From: an uncultured Synergistaceae bacterium
GTDB taxonomy: Bacteria; Synergistota; Synergistia; Synergistales; 79-D21
Length of the DNA stretch: 64,000 nt
Reading direction: 5' to 3'
Assembly: GCA_964425765.1 (NCBI GenBank)
Contig: CAYRNZ010000004.1
Span: 20,218-84,217, forward strand
Part shown: positions 2,588-52,127 of the stretch, one piece after another
How positions within the stretch are numbered: position 1 is the stretch's first letter
How the letters are laid out: each line of letters begins with the position of its first letter
The notes under the pieces: generated by a model
The model's database searches: none
Seen by the model: the letters and a program-made list of their open reading frames with translations, nothing else
What the model was told of the DNA's origin: nothing
Made by a program: the position numbers and the translations under genes

Positions 2588-3457
2588 TTAAAACTCGAAA
2601 ACCGTTCCGGGGCCCAACGCGGTAACGCGGTCACCGAGTCGCGAGGATAAGGCGGCTTCGGCCTTTTTCCCCGTGCAGTGCCCCGTTGCAAGCAGGGCCG
2701 GGTTAAACCCGGCCAGGGCAGAAACGGTTTTCTCGATCCGTTCATCGCTTGCGTCTACGAGGTGCAGGCCCCCGATGATGGCGAGGATTTTTTCGGAAGG
2801 GGTTGTCGTGTGCTTCAGGATGTTCACGATTCCCGGGTGGCTGCAGCCCGTGAGGATGACGACACCCTTATCCTCGATGTACGCCTTCACGGCGATCTCG
2901 TCCCGCATCGGGTCGGGGACGATATGCCCGGCGTCGTCCAGGGTGCGACGGGCGGTTACGGTCTCTTCGAAATCCGTGACTCCGGGGATTTCCCCGCTCG
3001 TGGAAAGGCCGGGCATCAGCTCGAGCGCGTCCTTTGCCAGGAGCAGCCTTCCCCCGGCGGCCCGTATCTCGTCGGGTTGGTTTCCGTTCCGCATCCCCAG
3101 GTGCTGGAAAAAAGGAGCCGTGACAAAGTTGTGCCTGAAAAGGCCGGGGTGCGCGATCACGGGAAGGTCTTCCTGTCCGATCGCCCTCAGGATGGGGACT
3201 AGTGCCCCCGTATGGTCGTAATGGCAATGCGTCAGCACCACGGCATCGGTTTTTCCCAGGGGGATGCCGAGCTCGGCCGCATTGGAAAGGAGTGCGTCCG
3301 GGTGCTGCCCCACATCGACGAGGAACCTCCTTTCGCCTGTGCCTCTTTTTGCCTCGAGCCAGAAGGACACCCCATGCTGTCCCAATAGCCTGCTCTTATG
3401 CGGGACGCTGTTCTCAGCCAATACGGTTATCCTGAGTTTGTCCAGCACTTGTCCCAC
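2588..3457 (-). CDS. MBL-fold metallo-hydrolase (COG1237-like), paralog A
   Basis: HCHYDH (HxHxDH) zinc motif and GCSHPG. 289 aa, colinear with the 22775..23644 product. Confidence 0.85.
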   Translation of the reverse strand: MGQVLDKLRITVLAENSVPHKSRLLGQHGVSFWLEAKRGTGERRFLVDVGQHPDALLSNAAELGIPLGKTDAVVLTHCHYDHTGALVPILRAIGQEDLPVIAHPGLFRHNFVTAPFFQHLGMRNGNQPDEIRAAGGRLLLAKDALELMPGLSTSGEIPGVTDFEETVTARRTLDDAGHIVPDPMRDEIAVKAYIEDKGVVILTGCSHPGIVNILKHTTTPSEKILAIIGGLHLVDASDERIEKTVSALAGFNPALLATGHCTGKKAEAALSSRLGDRVTALGPGTVFEF

Positions 3458-22774: not shown

Positions 22775-23644
22775 TCAAAAATGGAAAACAGTGCCCGAGC
22801 CCATCGTGGAGAAGCGTTTACCGAACCTGGCGTAGAGAGAGGCCTGGGCACGGAAACCGGTACAATGTCCCGCGGCCACCAGGGAGGGCGAAAAGCCTTC
22901 CAGGGCAGAGACGGTCTTTTCGATTCTGCCTTCGGGCGCTTCGACGAGGTGAAGGCCGCCGATCACCGCTTCGACTCGTTCCCCGGGTTCCAGGACATGT
23001 TTCAGGATGTTGACGATACCTGAATGGCTGCAGCCGGTCACGACGACAACTCCTTTGTTTCTCACGCGGGCCGCCAGGGACAGATCGTCCGGCATGAGGT
23101 CGGGAACGACCCGGCCTTGCCCGTCCAGGGTGGAAAGCGCGATCCCGACTTCTTCGAAATCAGTGACCCTCGGCACCTCTCCCGTGGTGCAAAGCCCCGG
23201 CATCAGCTGTAAGGGACCGGTGACGGAAACGAGCCGACCCCCTGCAGCTTCCAGGTTTTCCGGCATATCCTTCCGCATCACGCCGACATGCTGGAAAAAA
23301 GGGACCGTGACGAAATTCAACCTGAAGAGGGCACGGTGAGCGATGACCGGCAGGTCCGCCCTGCCGGTCGCTTCGAGGATCCGGGCAAGTCCCTGGGTGT
23401 GGTCGTAGTGGCAATGCGTAAGAACGACCGCGTCCGTACACCCCAGGGGTACCCCGAGTTTTTCGATGTTGTGGAGCAGCGCGTCGGGATTCTGCCCGAC
23501 GTCGACCAGGATATGCCTCGTGACGCCTTCGCGCTCCGCTTCAAGCCAGTAGGACACCCCGTGCTGGCCAAGCAGGGGGCTCTCGTAGGGGACGCTATCT
23601 TCCGCCAAAACCGTGACCGTCAGCCTGTCGAGCACTCCGTCCAC
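22775..23644 (-). CDS. MBL-fold metallo-hydrolase (COG1237-like), paralog B
   Basis: HCHYDH and GCSHSG motifs. 289 aa, colinear with the 2588..3457 product. Confidence 0.85.
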   Translation of the reverse strand: MDGVLDRLTVTVLAEDSVPYESPLLGQHGVSYWLEAEREGVTRHILVDVGQNPDALLHNIEKLGVPLGCTDAVVLTHCHYDHTQGLARILEATGRADLPVIAHRALFRLNFVTVPFFQHVGVMRKDMPENLEAAGGRLVSVTGPLQLMPGLCTTGEVPRVTDFEEVGIALSTLDGQGRVVPDLMPDDLSLAARVRNKGVVVVTGCSHSGIVNILKHVLEPGERVEAVIGGLHLVEAPEGRIEKTVSALEGFSPSLVAAGHCTGFRAQASLYARFGKRFSTMGSGTVFHF

Positions 23645-44160: not shown

Positions 44161-44408
44161 CCTTACCCCCCCTTTTTCCTGCTGACAGGTCAATTATACC
44201 GTGGAAGGATAACCGGTTTGGCCTGCCTGGTTTCCTGGTTCGACGGCCGTGGCTTGAATGTCGGGCGCAGGTGGATCCGGGGGTTCATAAAGAATTGTTG
44301 TGCTATGATTTTCTTCAAGCCTCGGCATCCCGTTCACATGGAACGGACTATTCGGGCCTGTGCCGGGAGGGGGCGGGAAATTCAAAATGAAACGGGAGTG
44401 TGGTCGGA

Positions 44409-44993
44409 GTGAAAAGCCTGAAGGGGACGAAAACGGCGGAAAACCTGATGAAGGCCTTTGCGGGAGAGTCGCAGGCAAGGAACCGGTACTCGTACTATGC
44501 TTCGGTGGCAAAGAAGGAAGGCTATGTCCAGATCTCGAACATTTTCACGGAAACCGCTGAAAACGAGAAGGAACACGCCAAGCGGTTCTTCAAGTTCCTG
44601 GTGCGGGACCTGAACGAGGGGAACGTCTCCATAGAGTCCAGTTTCCCCGTGGCCCTGGGCGACACCCGCCTGAACCTTCTCGCCGCGGCGGAGGGGGAGC
44701 ACGAGGAATGGAATGAGCTTTACCCGGCCTTTGCGGACATGGCCGACGAGGAAGGTTTCCCCGAAGTCGCCATGGTTTTCCGCAAGATAGCGGAGGTCGA
44801 GAAGCACCACGAGGCCCGCTACCGGAAGCTTCGCGCGAACCTGGAATCGGGGAACGTCTTCAGGAAACCTGTGGTCGTCGAATGGAAATGCAGCAACTGC
44901 GGCTACATCCACAAGGGGGATTCGGCACCGGACATGTGCCCGGCCTGTGCTCATCCTCAGTCCTACTTCGAAGTCCTGGAAGCGAACTACTAG
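44409..44993 (+). CDS. rbr: rubrerythrin
   Basis: [23 protein letters not shown], diiron EExH motifs, C-terminal rubredoxin-like CSNCG...CPAC. GTG 44409 lies 10 nt after GGGAG; alternative start 44400. Confidence 0.92.
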
Positions 44994-45015
44994 GCGCAAA
45001 ACCCGGTAAAACCTG

Positions 45016-45041
45016 GCCTCCCCGCACGGGGAGGCTTTTTT
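45016..45041 (+). terminator. rho-independent terminator after rbr
   Basis: GCCTCCCC-GCAC-GGGGAGGC followed by TTTTTT. Confidence 0.75.
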
Positions 45042-45266
45042 GCTCTTCCGGGACGGACTTTAACAAAAAACGATTTTATAAAAAAGGTTTTTCTCTCTGG
45101 CAGAGTGTCATTCTTGTGTATAATTATCATTAAGGATTCCGATTTACAAGGAAGGAGTGATCGCATGGCAGACCAGCCAGTCAAGTGTACCGTACCGGCT
45201 CCGAGTGTTGAAAGCGCGGAATCTCCGAGTGCCTCTCCCGCAGAGGAAAAGAAGGAGGTCAAGAGA

Positions 45267-45887
45267 ATGGGTGTAACCGTCGCGATGAAAGCCCCCGATT
45301 TCACGGCCCCCGCTTACTACAAGGGGAAGTTCACAACGGTCAAGCTTTCCGACCATCTCGGCAAATGGGTCGTCCTCTGCTTCTACCCGGGCGACTTCAC
45401 ATTCGTCTGAGCAACTGAGGTGTCGGCGGTCGCCGACCGTTTCCCCGAATTCCAGGAACTGGGCGTGGAAGTCATTTCAATGAGTGTGGACAGCCAGTTC
45501 GTCCACAAGGTATGGAACGATGTCGAACTCTCCAAGATGGTCGAAGGCGGCGTTCCCTTCCCGATGGCCTCCGATGGGGGCGGGGCAATCGGCAAGGTCT
45601 ACGGCGTCTATAACGAGACGGCAGGAGTGGATTTCCGCGGACGTTTCATCATCGACCCCGATGGCGTGATCCAGGGCATGGAGGTCCTCACGCCTCCCGT
45701 GGGCCGGAACGTGGACGAGACGATCAGGCAGATCAAGGCCTACCAGCATGTCCGGAAGACCCAGGGCAAGGAAGTGATGCCCTCCGGCTGGACTCCGGGG
45801 GGCAAGGTGCTTCACCCCGGTGAGGATCTTGTCGGGAACGTCTGGAAGGAATGGAACCCGAAGGACGCCTATTCCAAGAAGGGCTAA
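45267..45887 (+). CDS. peroxiredoxin (AhpC/Prx1 type) with selenocysteine (TGA 45408-45410) at the peroxidatic position
   Basis: ORFs 45105..45410 and 45420..45887 share one frame. The joined read is [17 protein letters not shown] versus the canonical DFTFVCPTE. Alternative start ATG 45165; both starts have strong RBS. Confidence 0.8.
45422..45437 (+). promoter_or_regulatory. SECIS-like hairpin
   Basis: GTCGGC-GGTC-GCCGAC, starting 11 nt after the in-frame TGA. Confidence 0.65.
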
Positions 45888-45910: not shown

Positions 45911-45962
45911 CCTGAACGGCAAAGGCCCCCCGGTCGGGGGGGCCTTTGCCGTTCAGGTTTTT
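45911..45962. terminator. bidirectional terminator, 21-bp perfect stem
   Basis: CCTGAACGGCAAAGGCCCCCC-GGTC-GGGGGGCCTTTGCCGTTCAGG followed by TTTTTT. T-rich on the left as well. Confidence 0.85.
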
Positions 45963-45973
45963 TGCCAGGAGCC

Positions 45974-49963: not shown

Positions 49964-51697
49964 TCAATCGATGCCCCCGTATTCCCGGAAAAGGGCAAGG
50001 CGCCGATTCATCCTTTCCCGGTCGATCTGCCCGGTGCTTGTCCGGACGCTGAACATCTTTTCCGGTATTTCGGCCGAGTCGAGGCGGAAGCCGCATTCCC
50101 TTTTCCAGGCGAATTTCCTGCGGAGGGAGTGAACACCGAGAGCCGCGAGTTCCTCGGGCGAGGTTTTCCGCCCCACGGCCTCCAACCCCCCGACTATGAT
50201 GTCCCGGTCGTAGATCCCCCTGGCGAAGAGGCAAACCACGAGGGAATTGAGGATCATCCTCCACTGGGCGTCCTCCACCTGCCTCCTCACCTGCTGTTCC
50301 AGGGGGATGTCTTCCTGGAGCAGTTTCTGGTCCAGGCTGTAGCCGGGATCGTCCAGGTGCGAGTGCCTGACCCCCGCGATCCAGGACATCATGGCGTTTT
50401 CCCCGGTCAGGTAGCCCGCCGGTTCCACCTTCCCGTAATGCATGGCGAAGCTTTTCCCCCCGTAGGCCTCGGAGCAGGCGGCAGTCCCTTTTTCGAGGCT
50501 CCTGAAGAAGGGGTTGGTTCCGCGGGCGACCCTTTCCAGGGCTTCGAGGTAAATCTCGGTGTTGCCGAAGCAGAACGCCAGCCCGTCCGTGACGTTATCG
50601 TCGATGATGCCGGATAGAAATGCCTCGGTGGCCCAGGCGAGGGTCGTTCCCATGCTCATGACGTCCCAGCCCTGCTTCTCCATGAAAGCCAGGACCTTCA
50701 GGATCTCCTGCGGCGTGGACAGGCTCAGCTGGCTTCCCACGGCGAAGATCGGTTCGTAATCGTACGAGACCCGGGTCGTGGAGTAGTGGTAAGGGGCGAA
50801 CTCCTCCCGGAGTTCCGCCACCTGGATGCAGCCGCAGGGGCAATGGGCGCAGGCGATGTGCTGGACGTTGACCTGCCGGAGGAAGGCTTCGCCGGAGATC
50901 TCGTCGGCTCCCTCGAAGAAGCCCTGGCCGAAATTCCGCGTCGGCAGCCCCCCGATCCCGTTCAGGGTTTCCACGTTGGCGGAGGTGCCCAGGTCGTGGT
51001 ACTTCTTCATCTCCCCGGAACGGACGACCCGTTGGTAGAGGGTGTCGTAGATTTCGCGGTAGGCTGGGCCGGGAAGGCTCACGGACAGGTTGCCGCTCAC
51101 GACGATGGCCTTGAGGCGCTTCGATCCCAGGACGGCGCCGAGCCCCAGCCTCCCGAAGTGCCTGGAGGAATCGACCGTCGCGCAGGCGATCGGGGAGAGG
51201 CGTTCCCCGGCGGGCCCGATCCTCACGATGGACATCTTGCGCCCCCGCGCCTCCTCCGCCTGCCGAAGGATCCTGTCGGTAGCCGGGGCAGATTGTCCCC
51301 AGAAGGTGCCGGCCGACTTGAAAAGGACCTCGGTCCCGCGGATCGATAGGTAACCCGCGCGTTCCAGCTTGCCAGTGATGACCAGGGCGTCTATTCCCGC
51401 TTCCCTGAGGGACGAGGCGAGCCGCCCTCCGGCGTGGGATTCCCCGAGTTCCCCGGTTAGGGGCGAACGGAAAAGGGCGACCGTCTTGGTCGCTACCGGG
51501 AAAAGCCCGCTGAAAGGCCCCACGGTGAAAATGACCGGGGCTTCGGGAGCCAGGGGGTCCAGTTCGGGGTGCCCGTGGCGGAACAAAAGTTCCGTGCCGA
51601 CGGCCGTTCCCCCCAGGAACTGCTCGAAAAGGGTGAAATCCTCCTCCACGCGTGTTTCCTTCCTGGAAAGGTCGACGAACAGGATCCTACCCTGCAT
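49964..51697 (-). CDS. aldehyde:ferredoxin oxidoreductase family protein
   Basis: ILFVDLSRKE...GGTAVGTELL N-terminus, 577 aa, C-x2-C-x3-C-like CAHCPCGC cluster segment. Confidence 0.9.
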   Translation of the reverse strand: MQGRILFVDLSRKETRVEEDFTLFEQFLGGTAVGTELLFRHGHPELDPLAPEAPVIFTVGPFSGLFPVATKTVALFRSPLTGELGESHAGGRLASSLREAGIDALVITGKLERAGYLSIRGTEVLFKSAGTFWGQSAPATDRILRQAEEARGRKMSIVRIGPAGERLSPIACATVDSSRHFGRLGLGAVLGSKRLKAIVVSGNLSVSLPGPAYREIYDTLYQRVVRSGEMKKYHDLGTSANVETLNGIGGLPTRNFGQGFFEGADEISGEAFLRQVNVQHIACAHCPCGCIQVAELREEFAPYHYSTTRVSYDYEPIFAVGSQLSLSTPQEILKVLAFMEKQGWDVMSMGTTLAWATEAFLSGIIDDNVTDGLAFCFGNTEIYLEALERVARGTNPFFRSLEKGTAACSEAYGGKSFAMHYGKVEPAGYLTGENAMMSWIAGVRHSHLDDPGYSLDQKLLQEDIPLEQQVRRQVEDAQWRMILNSLVVCLFARGIYDRDIIVGGLEAVGRKTSPEELAALGVHSLRRKFAWKRECGFRLDSAEIPEKMFSVRTSTGQIDRERMNRRLALFREYGGID

Positions 51698-52127
51698 GCG
51701 GGTTCCCCTCCCTTCCCGGGCTTTTTTCGACCAGCGCTATCACGTTGTTAGGGCAATACCGGGCGCACTGCCCGCAATGAACGCAGGGGATCGGCATCCC
51801 TTCCTCCGCGTCCCACTGCAAAGCGGCGATCGTGCAGGCGGCGACGCAGTTCCCGCAGGAGGTGCAGAGGGACTTGTCCAGGCGGACTCCGCCGCCCGGT
51901 GCAACCTTCAGGGCCCCGGTGGGGCAGGCCGAGGAGCAATCGGGTTCGGTGCACCGGAGGCAAACGCGGATGGAGAAGGCCCCCTCCGTTCCGGCGTAGG
52001 CCAGAACCCGCATCGCTGACTTCGACGTTCCGCCCATGCCCCGGAGCATCCGGCTGCACGCGTGCATGCAGCTGAAGCAGCCGATGCACTGTTCCCTGTT
52101 GATCACTCGCAGGGCTTTGAGTCCCAC
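51687..52127 (-). CDS. 4Fe-4S multi-cluster ferredoxin-domain protein
   Basis: CIGCFSCMHAC, CTSCGNCVAAC and CVHCGQCARYCP motifs. Overlaps the AOR start by 11 nt. Confidence 0.88.
   Translation of the reverse strand: MGLKALRVINREQCIGCFSCMHACSRMLRGMGGTSKSAMRVLAYAGTEGAFSIRVCLRCTEPDCSSACPTGALKVAPGGGVRLDKSLCTSCGNCVAACTIAALQWDAEEGMPIPCVHCGQCARYCPNNVIALVEKSPGREGNPHAG

What the first reader, a model, noticed from the sequence alone, without database searches (positions are those of the whole stretch)
45165..45887. Peroxiredoxin interrupted by in-frame TGA at the peroxidatic-Cys codon, with a SECIS-like hairpin 11 nt downstream: likely a selenocysteine Prx mis-split by ORF calling
The ORF track ends one ORF at ...FYPGDFTFV* (TGA 45408-45410) and starts another in the same frame at 45420. 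Read through, the junction is DFTFV-U-ATEVSAV. This superimposes on the universal Prx active-site motif DFTFVCPTE, so the stop codon sits exactly where the peroxidatic Cys belongs. Eleven nt after the TGA lies a perfect hairpin, GTCGGC-GGTC-GCCGAC (45422-45437). An 11-nt spacer and a G/U-containing apical loop match the geometry described for the E. coli fdhF SECIS. The usual resolving-Cys motif EVCPAxW reads EVMPSGW here, so the protein would be a one-Sec, no-resolving-Cys enzyme. It sits beside rubrerythrin in a small oxidative-stress islet. Two in-frame ATGs (45165 and 45267) each have a near-ideal RBS, so a 34-aa Ser/Pro/Glu-rich N-terminal extension is possible. Sec-containing Prx is known from at least one anaerobe (Eubacterium acidaminophilum PrxU, from memory), so this is rare rather than unprecedented.
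Basis: partly seen in the sequence, partly recalled or inferred. Interest (0 to 1): 0.6.

Follow-up and report, generated by a model that had tools for sequence, protein, structure and literature searches.

The report
Selenocysteine peroxiredoxin (PrxU) gene

Summary
An in-frame TGA (45408-45410) replaces the peroxidatic Cys codon of an AhpC/Prx1-type peroxiredoxin. A 6-bp hairpin with a GGUC loop starts 11 nt downstream. In 80 related loci from at least 8 phyla, 78 carry TGA and 2 carry TGC at this codon. Both halves evolve as coding sequence. The hairpin arms co-vary at synonymous sites. Three Cys-type homologs lack the hairpin. The read-through protein passes NCBIfam's equivalog model for PrxU (388 bits, cutoff 270). 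The hairpin meets all four published bacterial SECIS criteria and copies the E. coli fdhF geometry. Sec-Prx is the 7th most widespread bacterial selenoprotein family, and the host phylum, Synergistota, is selenoprotein-rich. The gene is therefore a new member of a known kind that ORF callers routinely split. Two corrections apply. The 34-aa N-terminal extension is real, and its Cys8 is invariant in 80 of 80 loci, so "no resolving Cys" is doubtful. The rubrerythrin adjacency is local to this lineage, not a conserved operon. Both start codons carry Shine-Dalgarno sites under nucleotide-level selection, which suggests two isoforms. The Sec machinery (selABCD) is not in the window and could not be checked.

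The parts
45097..45124 (+). Promoter-like site: CTGGCA (-35), 16-nt spacer, TATAAT (-10)
   Evidence: 10 of 12 consensus matches. It lies downstream of the rubrerythrin terminator (45015-45036), so prxU looks monocistronic. This is a consensus match only.
45152..45157 (+). Shine-Dalgarno site (AAGGAG) for the long-form start
   Evidence: it lies 7 nt before ATG 45165, with duplex energy -11.3 kcal/mol. The median across relatives is -11.5, against an in-frame background median of -3.5.
45165..45887 (+). prxU coding sequence, long form: 240 codons including Sec82, ending at TAA 45885-45887
   Evidence: NCBIfam NF040737 peroxi_PrxU scores 388.1 bits (cutoff 270) over residues 7-233. Pfam AhpC-TSA, E = 3.9e-36; codon position 3 varies 3-4 times more than positions 1 and 2 on both sides of the TGA, and none of the 80 loci has an extra in-frame stop.
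45165..45266 (+). 34-codon N-terminal extension, made of the conserved M-x6-C motif followed by a variable Ser/Pro/Glu/Lys-rich linker
   Evidence: the frame is open in every untruncated locus and the start-to-Cys spacing is fixed. The motif is (V/I)(G/S)C(A/T)(R/V)P, with Pro present in 77 of 80 loci and encoded by all four codons.
45186..45188 (+). Cys8 codon (TGT), the invariant N-terminal cysteine and candidate resolving or relay thiol
   Evidence: Cys in 80 of 80 loci, encoded by TGT in 43 and TGC in 37, so selection acts on the residue. It is also present in the Cys-type homologs P0030, P0013 and P0057. Its function is inferred, not shown.
45252..45259 (+). Internal Shine-Dalgarno site (AAGGAGGT) inside the coding sequence
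   Evidence: it lies 7 nt before ATG 45267, with duplex energy -13.8 kcal/mol. Lys/Glu codons here are G-ending in 77% of cases against 47% in the gene body (Fisher p = 1.8e-17). The SD is stronger than a synonymous-resampled expectation in 75 of 77 loci.
45267..45269 (+). Internal in-frame ATG, the probable start of a 206-aa short isoform
   Evidence: An ATG with an SD is present at or near this position in most relatives. It is weak or absent in a few (L007, L033, L039, L076, L078). Use of this start is inferred.
45408..45410 (+). TGA decoded as selenocysteine (Sec82 of the long form, Sec48 of the short form) at the peroxidatic position of PxxxTxxU
   Evidence: it aligns on the peroxidatic Cys of solved 2-Cys Prx. 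The codon is TGA in 78 of 80 related loci and TGC in 2. TGA is an ordinary stop in 6 of 10 neighbouring genes.
45420..45438 (+). SECIS hairpin: 6-bp stem 45422-45427 / 45432-45437, GGUC loop 45428-45431, and an optional G45420:C45438 pair that leaves U45421 bulged
   Evidence: 92.9% of cells are paired. Pairs co-vary at synonymous sites (27:36 AU41/GC35/CG1; 24:39 GC/AU/UA/CG; loop positions 1 and 4 GC67/AU10). Free energy is -10.4 to -11.8 kcal/mol. The hairpin is absent from three Cys-type homologs.
45777..45779 (+). Met205 codon at the position of the canonical C-terminal resolving Cys (EVCPAGW in 2-Cys Prx)
   Evidence: across the relatives this column is T in 35, C in 34, M in 8 and A in 3.
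45911..45964 (+). Intrinsic terminator: 20-bp G+C-rich stem followed by a T run

Best explanation
Positions 45165-45887 are a single intact gene for PrxU, a thioredoxin-dependent peroxiredoxin of the Prx1/AhpC fold whose peroxidatic residue is selenocysteine.

Decoding. During translation the UGA at 45408 is recoded. [quoted passage not shown] This mechanism is inferred from the established E. coli fdhF system.

Catalysis. The selenolate at position 82 reduces peroxides to give a selenenic acid. Because the canonical C-terminal resolving Cys is Met here, the oxidised Sec is most likely resolved by the invariant Cys8 on the flexible N-terminal arm, or directly by thioredoxin. This step is also inferred.

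Expression. The gene has its own promoter-like site and terminator, and two conserved translation starts that probably give 240-aa and 206-aa isoforms.

Shown here: the gene's integrity, family membership, conservation of TGA, the structure and covariation of the hairpin, and selection on the extension and on both SD sites.
For: Family. NCBIfam NF040737 peroxi_PrxU scores 388 bits against a cutoff of 270, full length. Pfam AhpC-TSA gives 3.9e-36. The closest solved structures are typical 2-Cys Prx, with the TGA aligned on the peroxidatic Cys.

TGA conservation. 78 of 80 related loci have TGA and 2 have TGC. They come from Synergistota, Cloacimonadota, Calditrichota, KSB1, Anaerolineales, Thermoleophilia, Clostridia and other groups.

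Not a pseudogene. The ratio of differences at codon position 3 to positions 1 and 2 is 4.1 upstream and 3.3 downstream of the TGA, and none of the 80 loci has an extra stop.

Hairpin. 92.9% of cells are paired and the covariation score is 0.335, against 0.132 in shuffles (0 of 500 reach it). Slid controls give 17-71% paired. The changes are compensatory and fall at third-codon positions. Parsimony gives 2 independent double changes at pair 27:36 and 4 at loop pair 30:33, plus many changes at 24:39.

SECIS criteria. All four published bacterial SECIS criteria are met (PMC13188914): loop of 4 nt, stem of 6 bp, G in the first loop positions, 17 nt from UGA to the loop, and MFE of -10.4 to -11.8 kcal/mol. 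The geometry equals that of the fdhF minimal SECIS: 11-nt spacer, stem from nucleotide 15, G-U in the loop, bulged U (PMC8659212).

Natural control. Cys-type homologs L081, L082 and L083 have no hairpin (-1.4, -0.2 and -2.0 kcal/mol) and a drifting peptide at that spot.

Genetic code and phylum. TGA is an ordinary stop in 6 of 10 verified neighbouring genes. 13 of 14 sequenced Synergistetes decode Sec, and Prx is the 7th most widespread selenoprotein family (PMC5029168).
Against: No selA, selB, selD or tRNA-Sec lies in the 64-kb window or in the flanks of the 80 relatives, so the Sec trait of this genome is unverified. No Rfam family matches the hairpin even at permissive thresholds. The hairpin's free energy is not unusual for this GC-rich context (z = +0.62). 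The clean covariation rests on about six independent events rather than on the raw sequence counts. There is no proteomic or 75Se evidence. The role of Cys8 and the use of the second start are inferences.
Confidence: 0.93

Rival explanations
1. Pseudogene: a peroxiredoxin inactivated by a nonsense mutation at the active-site codon, with two halves that are no longer under selection.
For: An in-frame stop splits the ORF, and no Sec machinery is visible in the window.
Against: The same TGA is present in 78 of 80 loci from many phyla. Both halves show a codon-position-3 excess of 3-4 fold, and no locus has an additional stop or frameshift. The downstream hairpin is conserved with compensatory changes.
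Confidence: 0.01
2. TGA is read as a standard amino acid, either through genome-wide reassignment to Trp or Gly (codes 4/25) or through near-cognate read-through, so the protein has no selenium.
For: Several database gene callers translated the orthologous codon as W (P0002, P0010, P0028, P0034 and P0061).
Against: TGA terminates 6 of 10 Pfam-verified neighbouring genes, and none of them has an internal TGA. Trp or Gly at the peroxidatic position of PxxxTxxC would abolish catalysis, whereas the only alternative codon seen in relatives is Cys (TGC). A SECIS-type hairpin accompanies TGA and is lost in true Cys forms. The W calls come from short contigs, where gene callers can switch code.
Confidence: 0.02
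3. Termination at UGA is the main outcome. The cell makes an 81-aa N-terminal fragment and, from GTG 45420, a separate 155-aa C-terminal protein, as the ORF track suggests.
For: GTG 45420 is an in-frame start candidate, and public databases list 155-aa products (P0001, P0019 and P0051). UGA recoding in E. coli is known to compete with RF2 (PMC4513850).
Against: Neither fragment would contain a complete thioredoxin fold, and the active-site residue itself would be missing. The Pfam domain spans the junction. The AF2 model of a Cys-type homolog is a single compact domain across the site, with mean pLDDT 89. GTG 45420 lies inside the SECIS stem region.
Confidence: 0.02
4. The hairpin is a by-product of encoding the conserved peptide VSAVAD, not a functional SECIS, and recoding depends on something else.
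For: The stem lies wholly in coding sequence. Three of six stem pairs never vary. No Rfam SECIS model matches. The energy z-score is unremarkable.
Against: The variable pairs involve synonymous third positions that change together (G:C to A:U or C:G) with no unpaired intermediates at 27:36 and 30:33. Slid-register controls lose the pairing. Cys-type homologs do not keep either the peptide or the pairing. The spacing and the GGUC loop match the fdhF SECIS.
Confidence: 0.03

Closest known systems
PrxU, the selenocysteine-containing peroxiredoxin of Eubacterium (Peptoclostridium) acidaminophilum (Sohling et al. 2001, Biol Chem 382:979; NCBIfam NF040737 peroxi_PrxU)
   Same: The window protein scores above the equivalog cutoff over the full length. 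It has Sec at the peroxidatic position of the PxxxTxxU motif, a Prx1/AhpC fold, and an anaerobic host rich in selenoproteins.
   Different: The host is a Synergistales bacterium rather than a Clostridium-group bacterium. From memory only (the primary paper is not held), the purified E. acidaminophilum protein was reported as about 203 aa and 22 kDa, which corresponds to the short form. Here the 34-aa extension with Cys8 is conserved and evidently translated.
E. coli fdhF SECIS element (minimal upper stem-loop)
   Same: It sits in the coding sequence, has an 11-nt spacer after UGA and a stem starting at nucleotide 15, has a small apical loop exposing G-U, and has an optional bulged U on the 5' side (PMC8659212). 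By my recollection of the fdhF sequence the tetraloop is also GGUC.
   Different: The G-U falls at nucleotides 22-23 rather than 23-24. The stem is 6 bp, and the universally conserved core across relatives is only 4 bp. No extended lower helix including the UGA was detected. The stem sequence is unrelated.
Typical 2-Cys peroxiredoxins (Prx1/AhpC subfamily; for example 4fh8, human Prx2 1qmv, Salmonella AhpC 4ma9)
   Same: They are the best sequence and fold matches (E = 6e-48; TM-score normalised to the target about 0.9). The active-site motif DFTFVxxTE and the C-terminal EVxPxGW arm are conserved.
   Different: The peroxidatic Cys is replaced by Sec, and the resolving Cys is replaced by Met in this lineage (T, C, M or A in relatives). 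There is an extra N-terminal arm with an invariant Cys that no solved structure covers.
1-Cys peroxiredoxins (Prx6 type)
   Same: There is no Cys at the canonical resolving position, and there is a weak hit to the 1-cysPrx_C domain.
   Different: Sequence and fold are closer to Prx1/AhpC. A second, invariant Cys exists in the N-terminal arm, so a strictly one-redox-residue mechanism is not established.

Membership tests
PrxU (NCBIfam NF040737, equivalog) | Whole-protein score above the curated equivalog cutoff | tested here: met
   388.1 bits against a cutoff of 270, E = 1.4e-116, residues 7-233 on profile positions 3-232 of 233. The next model (TIGR03137 AhpC) scores 183.8, below its cutoff of 272.
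PrxU (NCBIfam NF040737, equivalog) | Sec (or Cys) at the peroxidatic position of the PxxxTxxU/C motif in an AhpC-TSA fold | tested here: met
   the sequence P75-G-D-F-T79-F-V-U82 carries the TGA at the position aligned on the peroxidatic Cys of solved Prx. Pfam AhpC-TSA gives 3.9e-36.
PrxU (NCBIfam NF040737, equivalog) | Selenium is actually incorporated, and the protein has thioredoxin-dependent peroxidase activity | not testable with these tools
   This needs 75Se labelling or mass spectrometry plus an enzyme assay.
Bacterial SECIS element (consensus model, PMC13188914 Fig. 2) | Apical loop of 3-9 nt and upper stem of 4-16 bp | tested here: met
   4-nt loop (GGUC) and 6-bp stem, or 7 bp with a bulged U. 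A 4-bp core is universal in relatives.
Bacterial SECIS element (consensus model, PMC13188914 Fig. 2) | A G in one of the first two loop positions, usually followed by G or U | tested here: met
   The loop is G-G-U-C. In relatives it is GGUC (67 distinct rows) or AGUU (10), so the central G-U is invariant.
Bacterial SECIS element (consensus model, PMC13188914 Fig. 2) | [quoted passage not shown] | tested here: met
   17 nt (45411-45427), the same in all 81 sequences.
Bacterial SECIS element (consensus model, PMC13188914 Fig. 2) | Minimum free energy of -7.5 kcal/mol or lower | tested here: met
   -10.4 (6-bp stem) to -11.8 kcal/mol in the window. Only 46 of 81 relatives pass when the 21-nt core alone is folded (range -4.8 to -12.2).
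Bacterial SECIS element (consensus model, PMC13188914 Fig. 2) | Structure supported by compensatory change, and presence tied to TGA | tested here: met
   covariation occurs at synonymous sites and 0 of 500 shuffles reach the observed score. There are about 6 clean independent double changes. The hairpin is absent in 3 Cys-type homologs and retained only in 2 identical loci that look like recent TGA-to-TGC conversions.
Bacterial SECIS element (consensus model, PMC13188914 Fig. 2) | Binds SelB and directs Sec insertion | not testable with these tools
   This needs a binding or reporter assay.
Bacterial SECIS element (consensus model, PMC13188914 Fig. 2) | Match to a curated Rfam SECIS model | tested here: not met
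   no SECIS family matched at the gathering threshold or at E up to 10. Bacterial SECIS elements are too short and diverse for these models, so this carries little weight.
Sec-decoding organism | selA, selB, selD and tRNA-Sec (selC) present in the genome | tested here: inconclusive
   None were found in the 64-kb window or in the flanks of relatives, and the rest of the genome is not available. Indirectly, 13 of 14 sequenced Synergistetes have the trait (PMC5029168).
Typical 2-Cys peroxiredoxin | Resolving Cys in the C-terminal EVCPxxW motif | tested here: not met
   the residue is Met205 in the window. Across the 80 relatives the column is T in 35, C in 34, M in 8 and A in 3.
1-Cys peroxiredoxin (mechanistic class) | No second conserved redox-active Cys | tested here: not met
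   Cys8 is invariant (80 of 80) and Cys72 is invariant. Cys72 sits in the buried VLCFYP strand common to Prx1 enzymes, while Cys8 sits on a flexible arm.

The most novel reading that the evidence does not exclude
PrxU enzymes use a resolving mechanism not described for Prx1-type peroxiredoxins. An invariant Cys near the N-terminus (M-x6-C, motif GC(A/T)(R/V)P) sits on a flexible arm of about 25 residues. It swings into the active site to form a selenenylsulfide with the oxidised Sec, taking over from the C-terminal resolving Cys that over half of the family has lost. Two conserved translation starts, each with a selected Shine-Dalgarno site, produce a long isoform that carries the arm and a short isoform that lacks it, perhaps to adjust the resolving capacity of mixed oligomers.
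Probability: 0.3. Interest if true: 0.55.

Novelty: new member of a known kind. Interest (0 to 1): 0.27.

Why it matters
For annotation, the gene should be called as one 240-codon selenoprotein gene (transl_except at 45408-45410). The nearest public relatives are stored as 155-aa fragments or with Trp at the site, so the family is systematically mis-annotated in metagenomic protein sets. For biology, the main finding adds nothing new: Sec-Prx was described in 2001 and is among the commonest bacterial selenoproteins. The by-products are of modest interest. One is a very clean natural data set for a minimal bacterial SECIS: 81 sequences, an invariant G-U, covarying loop-closing positions, and loss of the hairpin in Cys forms. 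The others are the invariant N-terminal Cys arm and the dual start sites, which give a testable hypothesis for how a Sec-Prx without the canonical resolving Cys is recycled.

Tried and rejected
1. Rfam at the gathering threshold and at a permissive threshold found no SECIS family, only noise on the opposite strand.

2. I therefore dropped energy as an argument and relied on covariation.

3. Sec machinery: motif scans for SelD, SelB and SelA and tRNA scans of the window and of 80 relatives' flanks found nothing.

4. Other selenoprotein genes in the window: 124 TGA-split frames were screened by codon-position GC. Only prxU has a coding signature on both sides; the rest are antisense frames or ordinary stops.

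I modelled the Cys-type homolog P0030 instead, but the coordinates are not exposed, so the Cys8 to active-site distance could not be measured.

6. The primary PrxU paper is not held. Literature searches for an N-terminal resolving Cys in Sec-Prx found nothing relevant.

7. Conserved neighbours or a redox partner: no neighbouring family recurs in more than 8 of 81 loci.

8. A PerR/Fur-type operator at the promoter: matches of 11-12 out of 14 in the window, L002 and L003 are confounded by the -10 TATAAT and are not conserved further.
Full report
OBSERVATION. The sequence is exactly as described. An ORF opening at ATG 45165 runs to ...FYPGDFTFV and meets TGA at 45408-45410. The same frame continues [11 protein letters not shown]... 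to TAA 45885-45887. A mechanical ORF list splits it into a 101-aa ORF and a 155-aa ORF, the second restarting at GTG 45420. The hairpin GTCGGC/GGTC/GCCGAC occupies 45422-45437, 11 nt after the TGA. Read through, the protein is an AhpC/TSA peroxiredoxin (Pfam PF00578, E = 3.9e-36). Against solved structures, the best sequence matches are typical 2-Cys peroxiredoxins (4fh8, E = 6e-48; human Prx2; AhpC). The TGA is aligned on the peroxidatic Cys of DFTFVCPTE, and Met205 is aligned on the resolving Cys of EVCPAGW. Fold search gives the same answer.

IS THE TGA A LESION OR A CODON? A scan of one genome per species returned 80 related loci (71-95% protein identity). The closest are Synergistales MAGs, so the window is almost certainly from Synergistota. 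The others come from Cloacimonadota, Calditrichota, KSB1, Anaerolineales, Thermoleophilia, Clostridia (Gudongella), Marinimicrobia/Fidelibacterota and Deltaproteobacteria. At the aligned codon, 78 loci have TGA and 2 have TGC; the two are identical Cloacimonadales sequences. None of the 80 has any other in-frame stop. Mean pairwise differences by codon position are 0.16/0.12/0.59 in the 39 codons upstream of the TGA and 0.18/0.17/0.56 in the 59 codons downstream. Both halves are therefore under the same purifying selection, which excludes a pseudogene. TGA is not reassigned in this genome: it terminates 6 of 10 Pfam-verified neighbouring genes, and none of them contains it internally. The nearest relatives are stored as 155-aa fragments beginning MSAVADRF (P0001, 98% identical; P0019; P0051). 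Many full-length entries carry W at the site, which is TGA read under code 4 on short contigs.

THE HAIRPIN. Standard pairs form in 92.9% of cells, against 82.9% in column shuffles (0 of 500 shuffles reach the observed value) and 17-71% when the 3' partner is slid by 1-3 columns.

The stem is built from codons V-S-A-V-A-D, and the pairs that vary are third-codon positions on both sides:
- Ser-3rd with Ala-3rd (columns 27:36) is A:U in 41 rows, G:C in 35 and C:G in 1, with none unpaired.
- Val-3rd with Asp-3rd (columns 24:39) is G:C in 44, A:U in 11, U:A in 9, C:G in 3 and G:U in 2, with 8 unpaired.
- The first and last loop bases (columns 30:33) are G..C in 67 rows and A..U in 10, never mixed.

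Because related sequences inflate such counts, I mapped the states on a neighbour-joining tree built from the rest of the protein. Pair 27:36 reflects only 2 independent double changes. Pair 30:33 reflects 4, with both columns always changing together. Pair 24:39 changes many times. The covariation is real but rests on a handful of events.

A natural control agrees. Three Cys-type homologs of 65-70% identity have no hairpin at this place (-1.4, -0.2 and -2.0 kcal/mol): Desulfoferula with TGC, Peptoniphilus with TGT, and a metagenome contig with TGC. Their peptide there drifts (VSALAA, VSTVAA, VAAVAS). All TGA forms keep VSAVA and the pairing. The only TGC genes that keep the hairpin are the two identical Cloacimonadales loci, which look like a recent Sec-to-Cys conversion (one event by parsimony).

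Energy alone is not an argument. A 61-nt fold is no better than shuffles (z = +0.62). Rfam has nothing that matches.

COMPARISON WITH KNOWN SECIS ELEMENTS. The published bacterial consensus has four criteria: loop of 3-9 nt, stem of 4-16 bp, a G in the first two loop positions, 16-37 nt from UGA to the loop, and MFE of -7.5 kcal/mol or lower (PMC13188914). All are met: the loop is GGUC, the stem is 6 bp, the spacing is 17 nt, and the energy is -10.4 to -11.8 kcal/mol. The E. coli fdhF minimal element is described as a 17-nt upper stem-loop 11 nt from UGA, spanning nucleotides 15-31, with a bulged U17 and essential G23/U24 in the loop (PMC8659212). With the U of UGA numbered 1, the window's stem starts at nucleotide 15 and the loop G-U sits at nucleotides 22-23. 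The best fold adds a G:C pair that bulges U14. From my own recollection, the fdhF tetraloop is also GGUC, and its first and last bases pair in the NMR structure. That would explain the 30:33 covariation, but I could not check it.

FAMILY. With Cys substituted for Sec, the long form scores 388.1 bits on NCBIfam NF040737 'peroxi_PrxU'. This is an equivalog model with a cutoff of 270, and the match runs end to end (residues 7-233 on profile positions 3-232 of 233). The generic AhpC model stays below its cutoff. Reviews list Prx (TxxU) among the experimentally verified bacterial selenoproteins, citing Sohling et al. 2001 on Eubacterium acidaminophilum (PMC9312934, PMC13188914). A survey of 5200 genomes found 91 Sec-Prx genes in 78 organisms, making it the 7th most widespread family. 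The same survey found that 13 of 14 sequenced Synergistetes decode Sec, most of them selenoprotein-rich (PMC5029168). This is therefore a new member of a well-known kind, not a rarity.

WHAT COULD NOT BE SHOWN. The window contains only tRNA-Asn and no SelD, SelB or SelA signature. The flanks of the 80 relatives contain no tRNA-Sec. No second TGA-interrupted gene with a coding signature on both sides exists in the window. The phylum-level statistic makes absence unlikely.

THE N-TERMINAL EXTENSION AND THE RESOLVING CYS. Several results bear on this.
- The extension is open in every untruncated locus and is covered by the PrxU model.
- It begins with a conserved block, M-x6-C followed by (A/T)(R/V)P. 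The Cys (Cys8, codon 45186-45188) is invariant in 80 of 80 loci while its codon varies (TGT in 43, TGC in 37).
- The Pro three residues later uses all four codons, so the block is translated and selected as protein.
- The motif also occurs in the Cys-type members P0030, P0013 and P0057.
- By contrast, the canonical resolving position is Cys in only 34 of 80 loci (T in 35, M in 8, A in 3).
- The only other Cys, Cys72, lies in the buried VLCFYP strand shared with ordinary Prx1 enzymes.
- An AlphaFold2 model of P0030 is confident for the core (mean pLDDT 89). It gives the first 20 residues intermediate confidence (about 72) and the following linker low confidence (about 45). That fits an ordered motif on a flexible tether.

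My inference is that Cys8 is the thiol that resolves or relays the oxidised Sec. I put this at roughly 0.3-0.4, because direct reduction by thioredoxin or some other role for the motif is equally conceivable. I found no paper that discusses it, and the primary PrxU paper is not held.

TWO STARTS. Across relatives the median anti-SD duplex energy is -11.5 kcal/mol at the long start and -11.6 at the internal ATG, against -3.5 for in-frame positions in the gene body (1st percentile -10.7). The internal site is not simply a by-product of a Lys/Glu-rich linker. Lys/Glu codons in the five codons before the internal ATG are G-ending in 165 of 214 cases (77%), against 855 of 1824 (47%) in the body (Fisher p = 1.8e-17, not corrected for phylogeny). 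The observed SD is stronger than a synonymous-codon resampling in 75 of 77 loci. Genomes of 39-45% GC still spell AAGGAG. A few lineages lack a good internal start. The simplest reading is that most PrxU genes make two isoforms, with and without the Cys arm. From memory, the E. acidaminophilum protein was purified as a species of about 22 kDa and 203 aa, which would be the short one.

CONTEXT. prxU has a promoter-like site (CTGGCA, 16-nt spacer, TATAAT, 45097-45124). It lies between the rubrerythrin terminator (45015-45036) and its own 20-bp terminator (45911-45957). Rubrerythrin (44400-44993) is confirmed, but it lies within 3 kb of prxU only in the window and its two closest relatives, plus distant homologs in two others. 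No neighbouring family recurs in more than 8 of 81 loci. The 'islet' is a local juxtaposition of two separately transcribed peroxide-defence genes, not a conserved module.

VERDICT. The feature is a correctly recognised but ordinary member of the PrxU selenoprotein family, with a textbook minimal bacterial SECIS. Interest is low to moderate. It lies mainly in the annotation fix and in the two by-products: the invariant N-terminal Cys arm and the selected dual starts.

Noticed in passing
window 45165-45269; L001-L080 at equivalent positions: Two conserved translation starts in prxU. The internal ATG (45267) has an in-ORF Shine-Dalgarno site that is maintained by codon choice even in AT-rich genomes (77% G-ending Lys/Glu codons against 47% in the gene body; stronger than synonymous resampling in 75 of 77 loci). 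This suggests long and short isoforms.
   Followed up: yes
window 45186-45188 (Cys8); all 80 relatives: An invariant Cys at a fixed distance from the start (M-x6-C, motif GC(A/T)(R/V)P) sits on an otherwise variable N-terminal arm. The canonical C-terminal resolving Cys is present in only 34 of 80 relatives. Cys8 is a candidate alternative resolving thiol.
   Followed up: partly
A1 columns 30 and 33 (window 45428 and 45431): The first and last bases of the SECIS tetraloop co-vary (G..C in 67 rows, A..U in 10, in 4 independent switches with no intermediates). The functional loop may therefore be a closed pair presenting only the invariant G-U dinucleotide.
   Followed up: partly
L064 and L073 (Cloacimonadales), position 3130: Two identical loci have TGC (Cys) instead of TGA but still keep the full SECIS hairpin. 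This looks like a very recent Sec-to-Cys conversion. Older Cys-type homologs (L081-L083) have lost the hairpin.
   Followed up: partly
protein P0016 (JGI, 199 aa): A close homolog (71% identical) is recorded with Ser at the peroxidatic position (FTFVSATE). It could be a real inactive variant, a TGA-to-TCA change, or a gene-calling artefact.
   Followed up: no
window 45118-45133: An AT-rich near-palindrome (GTATAATTATCATTA) overlaps the -10 box and matches the PerR/Fur-type consensus TTATAATNATTATAA at 11 of 14 positions. L002 and L003 match at 12 of 14. The match is confounded by the TATAAT itself and is not conserved in more distant relatives.
   Followed up: partly
window 49964-51697 (-) and 51687-52127 (-): An aldehyde:ferredoxin oxidoreductase (AFOR_N and AFOR_C) lies next to a small ORF that looks Cys-rich and ferredoxin-like. 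This is typical anaerobe metabolism and fits a Synergistota amino-acid fermenter. The small ORF was not run against Pfam.
   Followed up: no
window 22775-23644 (-) and 2588-3457 (-): Two paralogous 289-aa ORFs have very similar N-termini (M..VLD[KR]L.[IV]TVLAE[ND]SVP..S.LLGQHGVS[FY]WLEA). This is a duplicated gene family of unknown function within the window.
   Followed up: no
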